NCBI RefSeq assembly: GCF_937863155.1
Contig: NZ_CALMFB010000054.1
Span: forward strand, 29,975-93,974
Length of the DNA: 64,000 nucleotides
Direction of reading: 5' to 3'
DNA from: an uncultured Brevundimonas sp.
Lineage (GTDB): Bacteria; Pseudomonadota; Alphaproteobacteria; Caulobacterales; Caulobacteraceae
Shown: in pieces, positions 17,911-46,446 of the stretch
Layout: every line of letters begins with the position of its first letter
Numbering within the stretch: position 1 is the first letter of the stretch
Notes under the pieces: generated by a model
What the model saw: only the letters and a program-made list of their open reading frames with translations
What the model was told of the DNA's origin: nothing
The model's database searches: none
Made by a program: the position numbers and the translations under genes

Positions 17911-18000
17911 GGACAGGTGGCCGAGTGGTTGAAGGCGCACGCCTGGAACGCGTGTATAGGGGAAACTCTATCGGGGGTTCGAATCCCCCTCTGTCCGCCA
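17911..18000 (+). tRNA. tRNA-Ser(GGA)
   Basis: GGACAGG...CCTGGAAC anticodon loop, long variable arm, GGTTCGAATCC, ends CTGTCCGCCA; 90 nt. Confidence 0.97.
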
Positions 18001-18148
18001 CGCCAATTTATTGAAATTGTATCAGAAAATATCGCCACCCCCCTTGGGGGCGGCGCGCAATTCCAAGACTGTAGCGGCGGGTCTCCGGGGCTCGCTCAAG
18101 CACGATTTAGCGAAACGTCGCCGTCTGTTGGCAGACCGACAGCGCCCA

Positions 18149-18460
18149 TCACTGATGCGGGCAGCGCGACGAAATCTTCGTTCGGCTTAGCCAGGTGATC
18201 TGATGAAAGGTGCAACAGGCGATCAATCCCTGCCAGATCGGCCCTGCGATGGCGGGCGAAAGACCGGCCGCCGCCGCCGTCGCGTGAACTTTCTCAAACA
18301 CCTGGGCGACGCGAACCGGGTCGTGAACGGCGTCCGGCAGGCCCTTTATGGCCGCCGCCTGCTCCACCAGCCTCTGCCGTTCCGCCAGCAGCCGGACAAG
18401 CCGGCGATCCACGGCGTCGATCTGAACACGCACGTCGGCCAGGGTGACAGGCGGCGTCAT
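18149..18460 (-). CDS. AroQ/PchB-type chorismate mutase
   Basis: LADVRVQIDAVDRRLVRLLAERQRLVEQAAAIK...HDPVRVAQV; overlaps the ubiV stop. Confidence 0.75.
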   Translation of the reverse strand: MTPPVTLADVRVQIDAVDRRLVRLLAERQRLVEQAAAIKGLPDAVHDPVRVAQVFEKVHATAAAAGLSPAIAGPIWQGLIACCTFHQITWLSRTKISSRCPHQ

Positions 18461-19362
18461 GACGGCACAGGTTCGACGCCGGCCTGGCCGCGCAGATAGC
18501 CGCCGATGAAAGGGGCCGGCGGCTTTGCCTGCGCCACGGCTTCATGCAGGCCTGCGGCGTCCATCCGGCCGTCCAGAAAGCCGCGAAACGCCTCCGCGAC
18601 CTGAGCCATGTCCATATGATGCGGCGACAGGCGAAGGGCCGTGACGCCCGCTGTACGCAGATCGTCGGGCGGAAGATCGGCAAGCTGAACTCCATGCGAC
18701 AGGGTCTGGACGCCGTTCACCGCCAGGAAGGCGCGGCCGTCCAGGGTCCGCAGGTCCATGCCGTCCGGGTCCTGGTCGCAGACGAAACGGCAGGCGTCCT
18801 TGTGCAGGCCGTGGCTGCGGGCATGGTAGCAGCGCCCCGACAGGGCCAGGGGCAGGCGGCCGAAGGCGAACAGCTCGATCTCCAGCCCAGGACAGGCGGC
18901 GGCGATGGCGCCGACAGCCGCCAGCGACAGCTCGACATTGGCGCACAGACGCACGCAGCCGCGCGCGATCAGTTCCTGGGCCGCCCCTTCGTTGTAGATG
19001 TTCAGCAGGGGGCCGGCCACGAACGGGCCGACGCGGTCCTTCAGGGCCGAGACGTCGTTGATCTCGATCAGGGCGTCCGTTTCGGCGGACAGGACCTTGA
19101 TCGCTTTGCGGTCACGCAGCGTCGCCGGCAGGGCCAGGCCCGACCAGACCACCGTCTTGCCCGCCTCGGTCAGTCGTTCTGCGGCTTCGGCCAGCGCATG
19201 ATCGACCAGGGGCGCGCGCTTTCCGCACACCACCTCGCCCAGATAGACGCGGTCCACCGCCGCGCAATCGGCCATGCGGGCGTAGAAATCGCGGATGCGA
19301 TCGGCGGGCCAGTGAAACAGCAAAGGGCCCAGGGCGATCTCGATACGGGTCGGATCGGTCAT
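18457..19362 (-). CDS. ubiV: O2-independent ubiquinone biosynthesis protein UbiV (U32 family)
   Basis: IALGPLLFHW...YLGEVVCGKR; LSGRCYHAR...CRFVC Fe-S cysteines; true start 19362. Confidence 0.9.
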   Translation of the reverse strand: MTDPTRIEIALGPLLFHWPADRIRDFYARMADCAAVDRVYLGEVVCGKRAPLVDHALAEAAERLTEAGKTVVWSGLALPATLRDRKAIKVLSAETDALIEINDVSALKDRVGPFVAGPLLNIYNEGAAQELIARGCVRLCANVELSLAAVGAIAAACPGLEIELFAFGRLPLALSGRCYHARSHGLHKDACRFVCDQDPDGMDLRTLDGRAFLAVNGVQTLSHGVQLADLPPDDLRTAGVTALRLSPHHMDMAQVAEAFRGFLDGRMDAAGLHEAVAQAKPPAPFIGGYLRGQAGVEPVPS

Positions 19363-20351
19363 CGCCACCTCTTGCGATAGGCGCCGGTGGTCTCGCGCCC
19401 GCCCTCGGCCAGGTCGGTCAGCAGATGCTCGTAGGCGTCGGGCGATTCCCCCCGGTCGATGGCGTCGATGGCGGCGCGGAAGGCGGCGGCGACGCGGGCG
19501 ACATAGGCCTTGCCGCGCTGGCGCCCCTCGATCTTGACCGCCGTCACGCCGGCGCGTTTCAGCCCGCCCAGCAGGCTCATGGCGTTCAGGCTGACCGGAT
19601 CCTCGAACAGATAGGACAGGACGCCCCGCGCCTCGAACCGGCCCTTGCACAAGGTGGGGTAGCCCGCCGGGTCGCCGGGGGCGTAGCGATCCATGGCGAA
19701 GCCCGCCAGGCGCGACACCAGGGCGTCTTCCTCTTCGCTGTAGGACACGGCTTCGGGCGGCGAGCAGACGCCGCACAGGTTGGGCGAACGGCCCGCCGCA
19801 TAGGAGGACAGGGCGCACCGTCCCTCGGCCATGACGCACAGGCCGCCGAAGACGAAGGCCTCGGTCTCGACCTCGATCTCGCGCATCAGGGCGGCGATCT
19901 CCTCCACGCTCAGCACACGCGGCAGGACCACACGTTTCACACCATAGGCCTGGGCGTAGAAGGCGATGGCTTCGGGCGATCCGGCCGCGGCCTGAACCGA
20001 CAGATGCAGACGAAGATGCGGCCACGCCTCGCGCGCATAGGCCAGGACGCCCAGATCGGCCACGATCACCGCATCGGCGCCCGAAGCGGCGGCGGCGTCC
20101 AGCGACCGTCGCCAGCGATCGCTGCCGCCCGCCTGGGCGAAGGTGTTCACGGCCAACAACACCCTGGCCCCGTGACGGTGCGCCCAGGCCACGCTGTCCG
20201 ACAGCTCCTGGGGTGAGAAATTCAGGCCGGGGAAATTGCGCGCATTGGTGTCGTCGCGCAGGCCGCAATAGACGCTGTCGGCGCCCGCCTCGATCGCCGC
20301 GCGCAGCATGGCGGGCGACCCGGCCGGACAGACCAGTTCGATCGAACCCAC
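19359..20351 (-). CDS. ubiU: O2-independent ubiquinone biosynthesis protein UbiU (U32 family)
   Basis: ELVCPAG...TNARNFPGLNF; GLCVMAEGRCALSSY...CS; TLCKGRF; KIEGRQR. Confidence 0.92.
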   Translation of the reverse strand: MGSIELVCPAGSPAMLRAAIEAGADSVYCGLRDDTNARNFPGLNFSPQELSDSVAWAHRHGARVLLAVNTFAQAGGSDRWRRSLDAAAASGADAVIVADLGVLAYAREAWPHLRLHLSVQAAAGSPEAIAFYAQAYGVKRVVLPRVLSVEEIAALMREIEVETEAFVFGGLCVMAEGRCALSSYAAGRSPNLCGVCSPPEAVSYSEEEDALVSRLAGFAMDRYAPGDPAGYPTLCKGRFEARGVLSYLFEDPVSLNAMSLLGGLKRAGVTAVKIEGRQRGKAYVARVAAAFRAAIDAIDRGESPDAYEHLLTDLAEGGRETTGAYRKRWR

Positions 20352-20355
20352 GCCC

Positions 20356-20889
20356 TTACCCCTCTCTTGCGCGCAGCCGCGCCAATCCCGCCGACAGCAG
20401 GGCGCCGGTCCAGCGCCGCAGCGGATCCGGCAGGGGTAACAGGTCGGCGGTCGTCAGTTCGGCCGCCTCCAGCGTATTGTGCAGGGCGACCACAGCCTGG
20501 GTGTCGCCGGTGATGCGAATGCGCCGGGCGAAGAAGGCGGCGTCGGCGTCACAGGCGCCGTCGAACAAACCGATCAGAGTGGCCAGAGGCCCCGTGATCC
20601 GCGCGGCGGAGGGCCGCGCCGCATCATGACGCTCGACCTCCACCCGGCCCGCGCCGTGACCCGGACGCAGCCGAAAGGCGACGGGAAAGTCGGACGGGGC
20701 GACCACCAGATCGACGTCATTGGCCACGCCCAGTCGCTCGAACACCTCGGGCCGGCGCCGGCCCAGCGCACGCAGGGCGGCGGTCAGCATCCGTTCCGGT
20801 GGGTGGCGCAGGGTCATCAGCACCGTGACAGCCAGGCGTTCGCCGCGACCGCGCCCGTCAGACTTTGATCGACGCCGCCAGCCGCTCAC
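20356..20889 (-). CDS. ubiT: SCP2-domain accessory factor UbiT
   Basis: RRPEVFERLG...DADAAFFARRIRITGDTQAVVALHNTLE; GTGA overlap with the upstream stop; start uncertain. Confidence 0.82.
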   Translation of the reverse strand: MSGWRRRSKSDGRGRGERLAVTVLMTLRHPPERMLTAALRALGRRRPEVFERLGVANDVDLVVAPSDFPVAFRLRPGHGAGRVEVERHDAARPSAARITGPLATLIGLFDGACDADAAFFARRIRITGDTQAVVALHNTLEAAELTTADLLPLPDPLRRWTGALLSAGLARLRAREG

Positions 20890-22655
20890 GCCGCCGCCTC
20901 CAGGCCGGGGGCGATCTGACGCGCAATCAGATCGGCGAACTCCTGGAACAGGGTGTCGCGCGCGGCGGGGGCCGCCCAATAGGGGGTCATGAAGACGCAT
21001 CGGATCAGCACCAGGCCCGAGGCGTCGACTGTCCCGTTCCATCCCGCGACGTGCCGGGCGATGGCCGCCTTGCTGGTCGCGCCCAGGGTGGTCCGGGACA
21101 CCGAAAAGGTCGGCGACCTGTGAATGTCGTCGAACAGGGCCAGGGTCTGCTGATTGACGACCGACAGAGGCTGTCCCTCGGCCGCGATGCAGAAACAGGC
21201 GATGTTGCTGTCGACCGGGGCCAGGAAACGGGCCTGGGGAACCCGCGATCCGATGGCGGCCTGGAAGGCGCGGCGCACGGCGATCGTCTCGGCCAGGACC
21301 GCGCCCAGGCCCTCGGCGCAGAAGCCCAGGGTGCGCCCGGTCAGCCAGGTCGCCGCCGCCCCCGCCGCCGACCGCGATCCCTCCAGCGTCGAGGACCATT
21401 TGCCGTCGCCCAGCTCGGGGCGGTCCAGATAGGGCGCATCGAAGGTCGACACGGCATAGGCGACCGCATCGCGGGTCAGAAAGGCCCCGCAGGCATAGGG
21501 GGTATAGCCCAGCTTGTGCGGGTCGATGGTCAGGGACTCGGCCCGGCCCATGGCCGCCAGGGCCGTGCGGGTGCGGTCGTCGAAGGCCGCGCCGTCCAGG
21601 TCGATGGCCCGAAGGAAGCCGCCATAGGCCGCGTCCACGTGGCTCCAGACATGCAGGCCGTGTTCGCGCCGCAGGTCGTCCAGACGCGCCTGCCACCGGT
21701 CCATGGGGTCGATCTGGCCCGTCTCGGTCGTCCCGGCCACGGCGACCGTCATCAGGATCGGCCGGGCCTCGTCGCGGGCGCGCTGGATCAGCCGGTCCAG
21801 ATCGTCCAGGTCCATGCGGCCTTGGTCGTCCAGGGCGACGCTCCACAGCGAATCCTCGCCCAGCCCGAAGATGTTGACCGCCTTGCGCCACGAATAATGC
21901 GCCGCGCCGGGCGCCAGCAGCACCGGCCCGCGCCACGGCTGGGGCGTCAGACGGTCGATCCGTCGCCAGATGTCCATGGGGTTGCCCGCCGCCGCGCGTT
22001 CCGGGCGCAGGATGTCCTCGCTCAGGTCGTGCGCGGCCCACAGGCGGCGGAACGCGCCCCATCCCATGTGGGCGTCGGCGAACACGTCCAGCGGGCGGCC
22101 CTTCGTCTCGGCCAGGTGAAGCGCCAGTCCCAGCCACAGGTCCATGCGGTGCCGCGCGCGCCAGACGGCCTCCAGATTGGCGACCGTGCCGCCCGAGGTG
22201 AAATGCCCCTGGGCCGCGTCGGGATCGTAGCCCAGCATGCGCGCCAGCATGGCGATGGCCTCGGTCTCGATCACCGTGCCGACGCGGCTGGCCTCGCGCG
22301 AGGTGTTGTTGGGATTGTGCAGCATGGCCGCCAGCCAGCCCATCAGGGCCGGGGTCGAGATGTCGGCCTTCATGTGGCTGATGTACCGGGGGGTGCAGGT
22401 GGGCGTCTCGCTGGTCATCGCCCGGCACAGGGCGTCCAGTTCCACCGCCAGCTTGTCGCGCTGGGCGCCGGCGGCCGGGGAAACCGTCGTGGTGATGGCC
22501 GCGTCCTGGGGGAACAGGCTGCGCCGCCAGTTGAACCAGGCGTCCAGGACATGCCCCAGCGACGTCCGCATCCAGGCTTCGTTCTCGCCGTGCGGGCCTG
22601 GAAAATAGGCGCCGGCCAGATCCAGCGGCGAAGGGGCGGCGGGCGATGCGGTCAT
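20886..22655 (-). CDS. Group II PLP-dependent amino-acid decarboxylase
   Basis: RYISHM...NPNN..REAS, GHFTSGGTVAN, HYSWRK, AGTTETGQID, HVDAAYGG, SLTIDPHKLGY (PLP lysine). Confidence 0.88.
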   Translation of the reverse strand: MTASPAAPSPLDLAGAYFPGPHGENEAWMRTSLGHVLDAWFNWRRSLFPQDAAITTTVSPAAGAQRDKLAVELDALCRAMTSETPTCTPRYISHMKADISTPALMGWLAAMLHNPNNTSREASRVGTVIETEAIAMLARMLGYDPDAAQGHFTSGGTVANLEAVWRARHRMDLWLGLALHLAETKGRPLDVFADAHMGWGAFRRLWAAHDLSEDILRPERAAAGNPMDIWRRIDRLTPQPWRGPVLLAPGAAHYSWRKAVNIFGLGEDSLWSVALDDQGRMDLDDLDRLIQRARDEARPILMTVAVAGTTETGQIDPMDRWQARLDDLRREHGLHVWSHVDAAYGGFLRAIDLDGAAFDDRTRTALAAMGRAESLTIDPHKLGYTPYACGAFLTRDAVAYAVSTFDAPYLDRPELGDGKWSSTLEGSRSAAGAAATWLTGRTLGFCAEGLGAVLAETIAVRRAFQAAIGSRVPQARFLAPVDSNIACFCIAAEGQPLSVVNQQTLALFDDIHRSPTFSVSRTTLGATSKAAIARHVAGWNGTVDASGLVLIRCVFMTPYWAAPAARDTLFQEFADLIARQIAPGLEAAA

Positions 22656-22687: not shown

Positions 22688-23131
22688 TCACTGGGGCCGG
22701 GTGACGATCCAGGCGCCGACGCCGGTCAGGATCGGCGCAACACCGGCCAGGACCAGGACGGGCAGGCCCAGCCCCGCCATCGTCAGCCAGCTGCACGCCA
22801 GGCTGGCGACCGCGATCTGTTTGGCGCGGCGCGGAATGGCGCGACGGGCGCGCCAGTCGGCGATCAGCGGCCCCAGCCAGCGGTGGCCGCGCAGCCAGGC
22901 CTCCAGGCGGGGCGAAGACCGGGCGAAGGCCCAGACGGCGACCAGGGCGAACGGCGTCGCCGGCAACAGCGGCAGCATCACCCCCAGGATCGCCAGGGCG
23001 GCGGCGATCCAGCCCAGCAGCAACAGCATCACCCGGCCGCTGTGCGCCTGGCGCGCGCCGGGCCGACAATGACACTCGCTAAAGCCGCACAGGTCGTAGG
23101 GCGCGTCGCGTTCAACGGAGTCGTGGCTCAT
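22688..23131 (-). CDS. YbaN/DUF454 inner membrane protein
   Basis: GVMLPLLPATPFALVA.WAFARSSPRLEAWL..HRWLGPLIADW; start 23131 or 23029. Confidence 0.85.
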   Translation of the reverse strand: MSHDSVERDAPYDLCGFSECHCRPGARQAHSGRVMLLLLGWIAAALAILGVMLPLLPATPFALVAVWAFARSSPRLEAWLRGHRWLGPLIADWRARRAIPRRAKQIAVASLACSWLTMAGLGLPVLVLAGVAPILTGVGAWIVTRPQ

Positions 23132-23168: not shown

Positions 23169-23182
23169 TTGCGACGCATCAA
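23169..23182. promoter_or_regulatory. FNR/FixK-type box upstream of the ybaN-ubi operon
   Basis: TTGCG-ACGC-ATCAA (one perfect half site). Confidence 0.6.
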
Positions 23183-46432: not shown

Positions 46433-46446
46433 TTGCTGTTTATCAA
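46433..46446. promoter_or_regulatory. FNR-type box upstream of narK1
   Basis: TTGCT-GTTT-ATCAA. Confidence 0.65.

What the first reader, a model, noticed from the sequence alone, without database searches (positions are those of the whole stretch)
18149..20889. Chorismate mutase translationally coupled to ubiT-ubiU-ubiV: a dedicated prephenate supply for O2-independent hydroxylation?
Seen: ubiU, ubiV and an AroQ/PchB-type gene overlap at their stop/start codons, with ubiT 4 bp upstream of ubiU. Established: U32-family hydroxylases (RlhA, TrhP, UbiUV) require prephenate, which has been reported as the oxygen donor for UbiUV in E. coli; chorismate mutase makes prephenate. Inference: the operon encodes its own feedback-free co-substrate generator, which would be genomic-context support for that chemistry. 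PchB-type proteins can instead be isochorismate pyruvate-lyases.
Basis: partly seen in the sequence, partly recalled or inferred. Interest (0 to 1): 0.78.

Follow-up and report, generated by a model that had tools for sequence, protein, structure and literature searches.

The report
Chorismate mutase in anaerobic ubiquinone operon
A Brevundimonas genome carries an extra small chorismate mutase gene welded to the end of its oxygen-free ubiquinone operon (ubiT-ubiU-ubiV), and other bacteria fuse the same enzyme domain to UbiT, which independently supports the 2024 claim that prephenate donates the oxygen atoms in this pathway.

Summary
On the minus strand lie ubiT (20356-20889), ubiU (19359-20351), ubiV (18457-19362) and a 103-aa AroQ gene (18149-18460). 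The ubiU/ubiV and ubiV/AroQ junctions are ATGA overlaps, ubiT ends 4 nt before ubiU, and a strong terminator follows the AroQ gene.

The genus is Brevundimonas. All ubiU-positive species examined carry this AroQ gene directly after ubiV. The 4-nt overlap is kept in 12 of 13 loci although the protein is only 37-49% identical between species. The closest pairs give dN/dS of 0.11-0.21. ubiU-positive genomes have three CM_2 genes and ubiU-negative ones have two.

Outside the genus, tight linkage is rare. However, Xanthomonadales encode a CM_2-UbiT fusion protein, and two or three Rhodospirillaceae and related alphaproteobacterial MAGs have an AroQ gene beside ubiTUV.

The catalytic residues are conserved, the predicted fold is AroQ, and no isochorismate synthase is present, so the PchB-type lyase reading is unlikely.

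Most likely this is a dedicated, oxygen-regulated prephenate supply for UbiU-UbiV within a nitrate-respiration island. No paper I could search reports this link. It is a new variant of a known system. Enzyme activity is untested.

The parts
18149..18460 (-). AroQ-class (CM_2) chorismate mutase paralogue, 103 aa. It is the last gene of the operon and its ATG overlaps the ubiV stop (ATGA).
   Evidence: Pfam CM_2 scores 59.4 bits against a cut-off of 27. It falls below every NCBIfam equivalog cut-off. R11, R28, K39, D47, R50 and Q87 are conserved. The AF2 model is a three-helix fold with pLDDT 82.6 and TM 0.73-0.83 to PchB and E. coli CM.
18457..19362 (-). ubiV (U32 family, 301 aa)
   Evidence: NF047965 scores 338.1 bits against a cut-off of 275. 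The Cys pattern C...C-x12-C-x3-C is visible in the translation.
19359..20351 (-). ubiU (U32 family, 330 aa)
   Evidence: NF047963 scores 504.9 bits against a cut-off of 440. The motif C-x6-C...C-x2-C is present.
20356..20889 (-). ubiT (SCP2 domain, 177 aa from the GTG at 20889; an alternative ATG lies at 20816)
   Evidence: NF047962 scores 54.6 bits against a cut-off of 46.9. Similarity to orthologues starts at residues 2-4, which favours the long form.
20886..22655 (-). Group II PLP-dependent decarboxylase, 589 aa, whose stop overlaps the ubiT GTG. It belongs to the same island, but it is not next to ubiT in every species.
   Evidence: Pfam Pyridoxal_deC scores 95.7 bits. It is present in 8 of 9 ubiU-positive and 1 of 21 ubiU-negative Brevundimonas genomes. 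In other species it sits beside moaDEBC-moeA.
22688..23029 (-). DUF454/YbaN-family membrane protein, the first gene of the co-directional run
   Evidence: Pfam DUF454 scores 114.4 bits.
23169..23182 (-). Weak FNR/FixK-like box TTGATGCGTCGCAA (2 mismatches), about 146 nt upstream of the DUF454 start, in the region divergent from fixL
   Evidence: Pattern scan and the sequence itself. Better boxes lie 84-177 nt upstream of ubiT in relatives. This site is weak and its function is not shown.
18033..18055 (-). Intrinsic terminator (10-bp stem with 9 GC pairs, then a T-rich tail) closing the operon after the AroQ gene
17911..18000 (+). tRNA-Ser(GGA), the boundary of the anaerobic-respiration island
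   Evidence: ARAGORN. In a related strain the spacer between the tRNA and the AroQ stop is replaced.

Best explanation
The 103-aa gene encodes a cytoplasmic AroQ chorismate mutase that is made together with UbiT, UbiU and UbiV. It is the last cistron of one oxygen-regulated transcription unit and is translationally coupled to ubiV. It converts chorismate to prephenate, and UbiU-UbiV use prephenate as the oxygen-atom donor for the three O2-independent ring hydroxylations of ubiquinone. Brevundimonas has only ubiquinone, so this supports nitrate respiration, which is encoded by the surrounding island (fixLJ, fixK, narK-narGHJI, mod and moa genes). The gene is a third, accessory chorismate mutase, added to a housekeeping enzyme that sits beside prephenate dehydratase. 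It raises prephenate supply exactly when the U32 hydroxylases are expressed. What is shown: the gene identities, the overlaps, the terminator, the co-occurrence, purifying selection, conserved catalytic residues, and the independent CM-UbiT fusion. What is taken from the literature: UbiUV need prephenate as O donor. What is inferred: mutase activity of this protein, translational coupling, lack of feedback control, and regulation by FixK/FNR.
For: 1. Anatomy.
2. Across 13 Brevundimonas loci the AroQ gene always follows ubiV, with a 4-nt start/stop overlap in 12 of 13.
3. The protein is only 37-49% identical between species, against 75-85% for UbiU. dN/dS is nevertheless 0.11-0.21 for the closest pairs.
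4. Phyletic pattern: ubiU-positive Brevundimonas have 3 CM_2 genes; 21 ubiU-negative genomes have 2, and one of them has 1. G015 has nar and the decarboxylase but no ubiTUV, and it has only 2. G588 and G021 have ubiTUV but no narI, and they have 3.
5. Xanthomonadales (Pseudoxanthomonas, Luteimonas, Thermomonas, Lysobacter) encode a CM_2-UbiT fusion of about 280 aa, about 3 kb from ubiD-ubiU-ubiV. The UbiT model scores 116-118 bits against a cut-off of 46.9, and CM_2 scores 47 against 27. All 120 listed protein clusters have both domains.
6. Rhodospirillaceae MAGs have an AroQ gene 185 nt upstream of ubiT (L099) or 1.2 kb after ubiV (L057).
7. R11, R28, K39, D48, R51 and Q/E88 (E. coli numbering) are invariant in all ubiTUV-associated copies.
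8. The predicted fold is AroQ.
9. No isochorismate synthase is present in 9 of 9 ubiU-positive genomes.
10. In E. coli, a pheA tyrA mutant lacks anaerobic UQ. The PheA mutase domain or added prephenate rescues it, and prephenate is the O donor (PMC10990095).
Against: No enzyme assay exists. The protein falls below every curated NCBIfam chorismate-mutase cut-off, and its nearest solved relative is PchB, an isochorismate-pyruvate lyase with only weak mutase activity. At the position of E. coli Glu52 it has Val, as PchB does, although orthologues in three species have Glu. The closest ubiTUV relatives (Caulobacter, Phenylobacterium, Asticcacaulis, G719) and about 130 other ubiU-positive Pseudomonadota lack a linked mutase, so the gene is not required for the pathway in general. 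The FNR/FixK box upstream of this particular operon is weak.
Confidence: 0.7

Rival explanations
1. The protein is a chorismate pyruvate-lyase analogue on an AroQ/PchB scaffold. It would make 4-hydroxybenzoate, the ring precursor of ubiquinone, for the anaerobic pathway.
For: Brevundimonas has no UbiC homologue: PF04345 was found in 0 of 12 genomes. The protein resembles PchB, which eliminates pyruvate from a chorismate isomer. The Val/Ile at the Glu52 position is PchB-like.
Against: ubiTUV-negative Brevundimonas lack this gene and must still make ubiquinone, so a ring-precursor source already exists. The orthologues in G014, G021 and G746, and all Xanthomonadales fusion domains, have the canonical Arg-Glu pair of true mutases. 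The published genetics show a prephenate requirement specific to UbiUV. No AroQ-fold chorismate lyase is known to me (from my own knowledge).
Confidence: 0.08
2. The protein is a PchB-type isochorismate-pyruvate lyase that makes salicylate.
For: The best NCBIfam and PDB similarities are to the PchB/CM-like subgroup. JGI names its paralogues 'isochorismate pyruvate lyase'.
Against: It scores 43.6 bits against a cut-off of 126 for the isochorismate-lyase model. No isochorismate synthase is found above cut-off in any of 9 ubiU-positive Brevundimonas genomes; only the TrpE- and PabB-like enzymes are present. No siderophore genes are nearby.
Confidence: 0.03
3. The protein is mainly a prephenate- or chorismate-binding accessory subunit (a carrier or scaffold of the UbiT-U-V complex) rather than a bulk supplier of prephenate.
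For: The fusion of the domain to UbiT in Xanthomonadales implies physical proximity to the complex. Sequence divergence between species is fast while the ligand-binding residues are kept.
Against: Every catalytic residue, not only the binding residues, is retained. The simplest reading of an intact AroQ active site is catalysis. No interaction data exist.
Confidence: 0.12
4. The gene is a passenger with no functional tie to ubiTUV. Its position is historical accident inside a mobile anaerobic island.
For: The linkage is confined to one genus. The island is patchy and lies next to a tRNA gene.
Against: Position and overlap are kept in 12 of 13 loci while both flanks vary: upstream is the decarboxylase or nrdJ, and downstream is tRNA-Ser or DUF454. 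The gene is under purifying selection. Independent fusions and adjacencies occur in other orders.
Confidence: 0.05

Closest known systems
UbiT-UbiU-UbiV O2-independent ubiquinone hydroxylation pathway of E. coli and P. aeruginosa, with prephenate as O donor (PMC6747719; PMC10990095)
   Same: The three proteins pass their curated equivalog cut-offs and the Fe-S cysteine motifs are present. The genes are adjacent and in an anaerobic regulatory context.
   Different: In E. coli, prephenate comes from the housekeeping bifunctional PheA and TyrA, and no mutase is encoded with ubiTUV. Here a fourth cistron, an AroQ mutase, is coupled to ubiV. The operon also continues from a PLP decarboxylase, or from nrdJ in a sister species.
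E. coli chorismate mutase domain (EcCM, PheA residues 1-109; AroQ class)
   Same: It has the same three-helix fold (TM 0.73-0.78).
   Different: It is a stand-alone 103-aa protein. It has Val at the Glu52 position and Cys at the Ser84 position, and no fused dehydratase or regulatory domain.
PchB isochorismate-pyruvate lyase of Pseudomonas aeruginosa (PDB 2H9C, 2H9D, 3REM)
   Same: It is the closest solved structure and sequence (E 1e-4; TM 0.78-0.83; 26-29% identity). It also has a hydrophobic residue at the Glu52 position.
   Different: There is no isochorismate synthase partner and no pyochelin or salicylate genes. The protein falls far below the isochorismate-lyase model cut-off. Orthologues switch between Glu and Ile/Val at that position.
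CM_2-UbiT fusion proteins of Xanthomonadales (annotated 'UbiT', 'SCP2 sterol-binding domain-containing protein' or 'YhbT/chorismate mutase')
   Same: They show the same functional pairing of an AroQ mutase with the UbiTUV system.
   Different: They are a domain fusion to UbiT rather than a separate cistron after ubiV. The mutase domain is of the canonical Arg-Glu type and forms its own clade.

Membership tests
AroQ-class chorismate mutase (Pfam CM_2, PF01817) | Match to the family profile above the gathering score | tested here: met
   59.4 bits against a cut-off of 27, residues 10-85
AroQ-class chorismate mutase (Pfam CM_2, PF01817) | Active-site residues Arg11', Arg28, Lys39, Asp48, Arg51 and Gln/Glu88 (E. 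coli numbering) | tested here: met
   All are present in the window protein and in all 13 Brevundimonas orthologues. Glu52 is replaced by Val here, and is Ile or Glu in orthologues.
AroQ-class chorismate mutase (Pfam CM_2, PF01817) | Three-helix fold of the AroQ monomer | tested here: met
   AF2 predicts helices 7-39, 48-64 and 69-98 with pLDDT 82.6. Foldseek gives TM 0.73-0.83 to PchB, EcCM and Bartonella CM. The dimer was not modelled.
AroQ-class chorismate mutase (Pfam CM_2, PF01817) | Membership of a curated equivalog (named chorismate mutase subfamily) | tested here: not met
   The best hit is TIGR01803 'CM-like' at 49.6 bits against 73.35. All 20 NCBIfam hits are below cut-off, so the subfamily is unassigned.
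AroQ-class chorismate mutase (Pfam CM_2, PF01817) | Catalysis of chorismate to prephenate | not testable with these tools
   Needs an enzyme assay or complementation.
PchB-type isochorismate-pyruvate lyase | Match to the isochorismate lyase equivalog model NF005475 | tested here: not met
   43.6 bits against a cut-off of 126
PchB-type isochorismate-pyruvate lyase | Isochorismate synthase (PchA/EntC/MenF type) present in the genome to supply substrate | tested here: not met
   TIGR00543 gives only two sub-threshold hits (TrpE- and PabB-like) in each of 9 ubiU-positive Brevundimonas genomes. Two ubiU-negative genus-mates do have one.
UbiT/UbiU/UbiV O2-independent ubiquinone hydroxylation system | UbiU, UbiV and UbiT each above the curated equivalog cut-off | tested here: met
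   504.9 against 440, 338.1 against 275, and 54.6 against 46.9
UbiT/UbiU/UbiV O2-independent ubiquinone hydroxylation system | Four-cysteine 4Fe-4S motifs in UbiU and UbiV | tested here: met
   UbiU has C-x6-C-x13-C-x2-C plus a later Cys. UbiV has an early Cys plus C-x12-C-x3-C. Both are seen in the translations. The E. coli residue numbering is recalled from Pelosi 2019.
UbiT/UbiU/UbiV O2-independent ubiquinone hydroxylation system | Anaerobic ubiquinone synthesis dependent on these genes and on prephenate | not testable with these tools
   Shown only in E. coli and P. aeruginosa.

The most novel reading that the evidence does not exclude
An AroQ chorismate mutase is a lineage-variable fourth component of the UbiT-UbiU-UbiV machinery. 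It would dock on the complex, most likely through UbiT as the Xanthomonadales CM-UbiT fusions suggest, and make prephenate in situ. The oxygen donor would then be channelled to the U32 active site rather than drawn from the cytoplasmic pool. UbiT would have a role in organising co-substrate delivery as well as lipid handling.
Probability: 0.3. Interest if true: 0.75.

Novelty: new variant of a known kind. Interest (0 to 1): 0.58.

Why it matters
That prephenate donates the oxygen atoms in U32-type hydroxylases rests on E. coli genetics and isotope labelling from 2024. The enzymology has not been reconstituted. Evolution has attached a prephenate-making enzyme to the UbiTUV system at least three times: as a coupled cistron, as a fused domain, and as a neighbour. 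This is independent support from comparative genomics for that chemistry. It implies that prephenate supply can limit anaerobic ubiquinone synthesis. It also supplies natural constructs, namely CM-UbiT fusions and four-gene operons, for in-vitro reconstitution and for asking what UbiT does. None of the papers I could search mentions the linkage or the fusion. The fusion proteins are currently annotated simply as UbiT or SCP2 proteins.

Tried and rejected
- The search for related loci with the single AroQ protein found no relatives. An alignment of eight orthologues was too divergent to seed a scan. I therefore used UbiU as bait and scanned the flanks with a home-built CM HMM.
- A maximum-likelihood tree of 42 AroQ sequences was too poorly resolved to say whether the ubiV-linked genes are monophyletic or arose by duplication of the resident fpr-linked paralogue. 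Only the fusion-domain clade and the Rhodospirillaceae pair are well supported.
- A metatranscriptome assembly contains a 17.7-kb contig that spans the AroQ gene through the decarboxylase. A contig of that length and flat depth cannot be told from DNA carry-over, so it is not evidence for co-transcription.
- A strict FNR/FixK box search found none near the operon. Only a 2-mismatch site lies upstream of DUF454. No sigma-70 consensus promoter was found.
- CM_2 genes 6-8.5 kb from ubiU in G474 (a bifunctional TyrA) and in G181/G398 were judged not informative.
- I first suspected the PLP decarboxylase was a specific partner of the mutase. It tracks the island instead: it sits beside the moa genes in other species and is present in the ubiTUV-negative G015.
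Full report
**Observation**

The window has about 70% G+C. On the minus strand a co-directional run reads as follows:
- DUF454/YbaN, 22688-23029
- a 589-aa group II PLP decarboxylase, 20886-22655
- ubiT, 20356-20889
- ubiU, 19359-20351
- ubiV, 18457-19362
- a 103-aa AroQ gene, 18149-18460
- a 10-bp-stem intrinsic terminator, 18055-18033
- tRNA-Ser(GGA) on the opposite strand, 17911-18000

UbiU, UbiV and UbiT all exceed NCBI's equivalog cut-offs (504.9 against 440; 338.1 against 275; 54.6 against 46.9). The last gene matches Pfam CM_2 at 59.4 bits against 27.
- decarboxylase stop and ubiT GTG overlap as GTGA
- ubiT TAA, then 4 nt, then ubiU GTG
- ubiU/ubiV overlap as ATGA
- ubiV/AroQ overlap as ATGA

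**Organism and setting**

Record titles of the nearest UbiU loci name the genus as Brevundimonas. The assembly is 2.79 Mb in 77 contigs. Near-identical sequence is found in activated-sludge, wastewater and bioreactor metagenomes.

The operon sits at the tRNA-Ser edge of an anaerobic-respiration island. The island carries FixL, FixJ, a FixK-like regulator, a cupredoxin, modABC/modE, narK-narK-narGHJI, a second Crp/Fnr regulator, moaA and NnrS. FNR-type boxes lie further along at 46433, 48603 and 52651.

**Is the linkage recurrent?**

Within Brevundimonas, ubiU is patchy: 7 of 25 genomes in the first sample carry it. Every ubiU-positive species has a CM_2 gene about 0.9 kb downstream of ubiU on the same strand.
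- In 13 loci from different species the AroQ start overlaps the ubiV stop by 4 nt in 12 cases.
- This holds although the AroQ proteins are only 37-49% identical, against 75-85% for UbiU and 58-74% for UbiV.
- NG86 dN/dS for the closest pairs is 0.11-0.21.
- The flanks vary. Upstream is the decarboxylase, or in G351 a FixK-boxed class II ribonucleotide reductase. Downstream is tRNA-Ser, or DUF454 plus the decarboxylase.
- The invariant block is therefore ubiT-ubiU-ubiV-AroQ.

**Phyletic pattern**

ubiU-positive Brevundimonas genomes have three CM_2 genes. Of 21 ubiU-negative ones, 20 have two and one has one.

The two resident paralogues in this genome are:
- a PRK06034-like mutase beside prephenate dehydratase (contig C67, canonical Arg-Glu)
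- a 114-aa AroQ beside ferredoxin-NADP reductase (contig C61, 51% identical to the ubiV-linked one)

The third copy follows ubiTUV and not the rest of the island:
- G015 has narI and the decarboxylase but no ubiTUV, and has two CM_2 genes.
- G588 and G021 have ubiTUV without narI, and have three.
- G022 lacks the decarboxylase and has three.

**Outside the genus**

In evenly drawn samples, 56 other ubiU-positive Alphaproteobacteria and 78 further ubiU-positive Pseudomonadota show no tight operonic linkage. The closest ubiTUV relatives (Caulobacter, Phenylobacterium, Asticcacaulis, G719) also lack it.

Two independent associations did emerge.

First, in two Xanthomonadales-type genomes (G553, G471) the CM_2 hit about 3 kb from ubiD-ubiU-ubiV is the N-terminal domain of a 280-292-aa protein. 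Its C-terminal domain is UbiT.
- NF047962 scores 116-118 bits against a cut-off of 46.9; CM_2 scores 47 against 27.
- A database search returned 1574 related clusters, and all 120 listed carry both Pfam domains.
- Sources name Pseudoxanthomonas, Luteimonas, Thermomonas and Lysobacter, with annotations such as 'UbiT' or 'YhbT/chorismate mutase'.

Second, among the 80 best UbiU loci, a home-built CM HMM found an AroQ gene in three non-Brevundimonas cases:
- 185 nt upstream of ubiT in a Rhodospirillaceae MAG (L099)
- convergent, 1.2 kb after ubiV, in another (L057)
- 3.5 kb downstream in a third (L058)

A prephenate-making domain has therefore been joined to this pathway in at least three architectures.

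**What the protein is**

The AF2 model has three helices (7-39, 48-64, 69-98) and pLDDT 82.6. It superposes on PchB, E. coli CM and Bartonella CM at TM 0.73-0.83.

Against E. coli numbering, R11, R28, K39, D48 and R51 are invariant, and position 88 is Gln or Glu, in all 13 Brevundimonas orthologues, both Rhodospirillaceae copies and 11 fusion domains.

Position 52 is Val here, as in PchB. It is Ile in most orthologues, but Glu in G014, G021 and G746 and in every fusion domain. This position therefore does not mark a different reaction.

The protein is below all NCBIfam equivalog cut-offs. Its best hits are 'CM-like' and isochorismate lyase, and its best PDB sequence hit is PchB.

The lyase reading is nonetheless unlikely. 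None of 9 ubiU-positive Brevundimonas genomes has an isochorismate synthase above cut-off; only TrpE- and PabB-like enzymes are present.

Brevundimonas also lacks UbiC (0 of 12 genomes). An AroQ-fold chorismate lyase making 4-hydroxybenzoate is therefore a minor rival that I cannot exclude from sequence.

**Mechanism proposed**

Established (PMC10990095): anaerobic UQ synthesis in E. coli fails in delta-pheA delta-tyrA. It is restored by the PheA mutase domain or by prephenate. Prephenate is the O donor for UbiU-UbiV, and phenylpyruvate is proposed as the by-product.

Inferred here: under low O2 the island's regulators switch on the operon, and the mutase is translated in step with UbiV. The extra prephenate feeds three hydroxylations per quinone. 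The phenylpyruvate by-product can re-enter phenylalanine synthesis, so the carbon is not wasted.

The absence of any regulatory domain suggests no feedback control, but this is not shown. The FNR/FixK box upstream of this operon is weak (TTGATGCGTCGCAA at 23169-23182). Relatives have better boxes 84-177 nt before ubiT.

**Comparison and novelty**

The system is a UbiTUV pathway member by every testable criterion. The fourth gene is an AroQ-family member by profile, residues and fold, but is not assignable to a curated subfamily.

Full-text searches found no paper that mentions a mutase beside ubiTUV or a CM-UbiT fusion. Pelosi 2019 notes only a ubiT-ubiU fusion in Zymomonas.

Earlier notes of this scan report similar mutase-U32 pairings in other genomes and in phages. 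I treated them as leads only.

I rate it a new variant of a known kind. It is confirmatory rather than startling, but useful for a mechanism that is still unresolved.

Noticed in passing
L017:5813-6655 (+) and L018:5929-6807 (+): Xanthomonadales encode a single protein with an N-terminal AroQ chorismate mutase domain and a C-terminal UbiT domain. It lies near ubiD-ubiU-ubiV with nadA-nadB in between. Public annotation calls it UbiT or an SCP2 protein and ignores the mutase domain.
   Followed up: partly
window 20886-22655 (-): A 589-aa tyrosine-decarboxylase-like PLP enzyme has its stop overlapping the ubiT start. It is found in 8 of 9 ubiU-positive but only 1 of 21 ubiU-negative Brevundimonas genomes. 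In other species it sits directly before moaD-moaE-moaB-moaC-moeA. Its substrate and its role in the anaerobic island are unknown.
   Followed up: partly
L022:8700-10082 (+): In another Caulobacteraceae genus (G719), ubiTUV has no mutase. Instead the ubiV stop is overlapped (ATGA) by the start of a 460-aa GlcD-like FAD-linked oxidase (FAD_binding_4 plus FAD-oxidase_C). This is a conceivable candidate for the unidentified electron acceptor of the U32 reaction.
   Followed up: no
L014:5616-10792 (+): In Brevundimonas G351 the operon reads: FixK-type box, class II (B12) ribonucleotide reductase, ubiT, ubiU, ubiV, AroQ. O2-independent dNTP synthesis and O2-independent quinone synthesis are joined in one unit.
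   Followed up: partly
G000:C61:23439-23672 (L001:1471-1815, -): A second PchB-like 114-aa AroQ lies beside ferredoxin-NADP reductase and is conserved across Brevundimonas. JGI names it isochorismate pyruvate lyase, although most genomes have no isochorismate synthase and none has UbiC. Its real substrate is open; a source of 4-hydroxybenzoate is one possibility.
   Followed up: no
L012:8945-9929 (+) (G021:C14:120944-121928): ubiU of this MAG is split into two frames (residues 1-86 and 87-331). This is either a frameshift or an assembly error.
   Followed up: no
window 18001-18149: In a related strain assembled from a wastewater metatranscriptome run, the 147 nt between tRNA-Ser and the AroQ stop are replaced by 301 other letters. 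The island boundary at the tRNA is therefore variable.
   Followed up: no
window 23260-49806: The stretch carries FixL-FixJ, a FixK-like regulator, a cupredoxin, modABC/modE with a TonB receptor, a hemerythrin protein, narK-narK-narGHJI, a second Crp/Fnr regulator, moaA and NnrS. This is a compact nitrate-respiration island. narI is present in 6 of 9 ubiU-positive and 1 of 21 ubiU-negative Brevundimonas genomes.
   Followed up: partly
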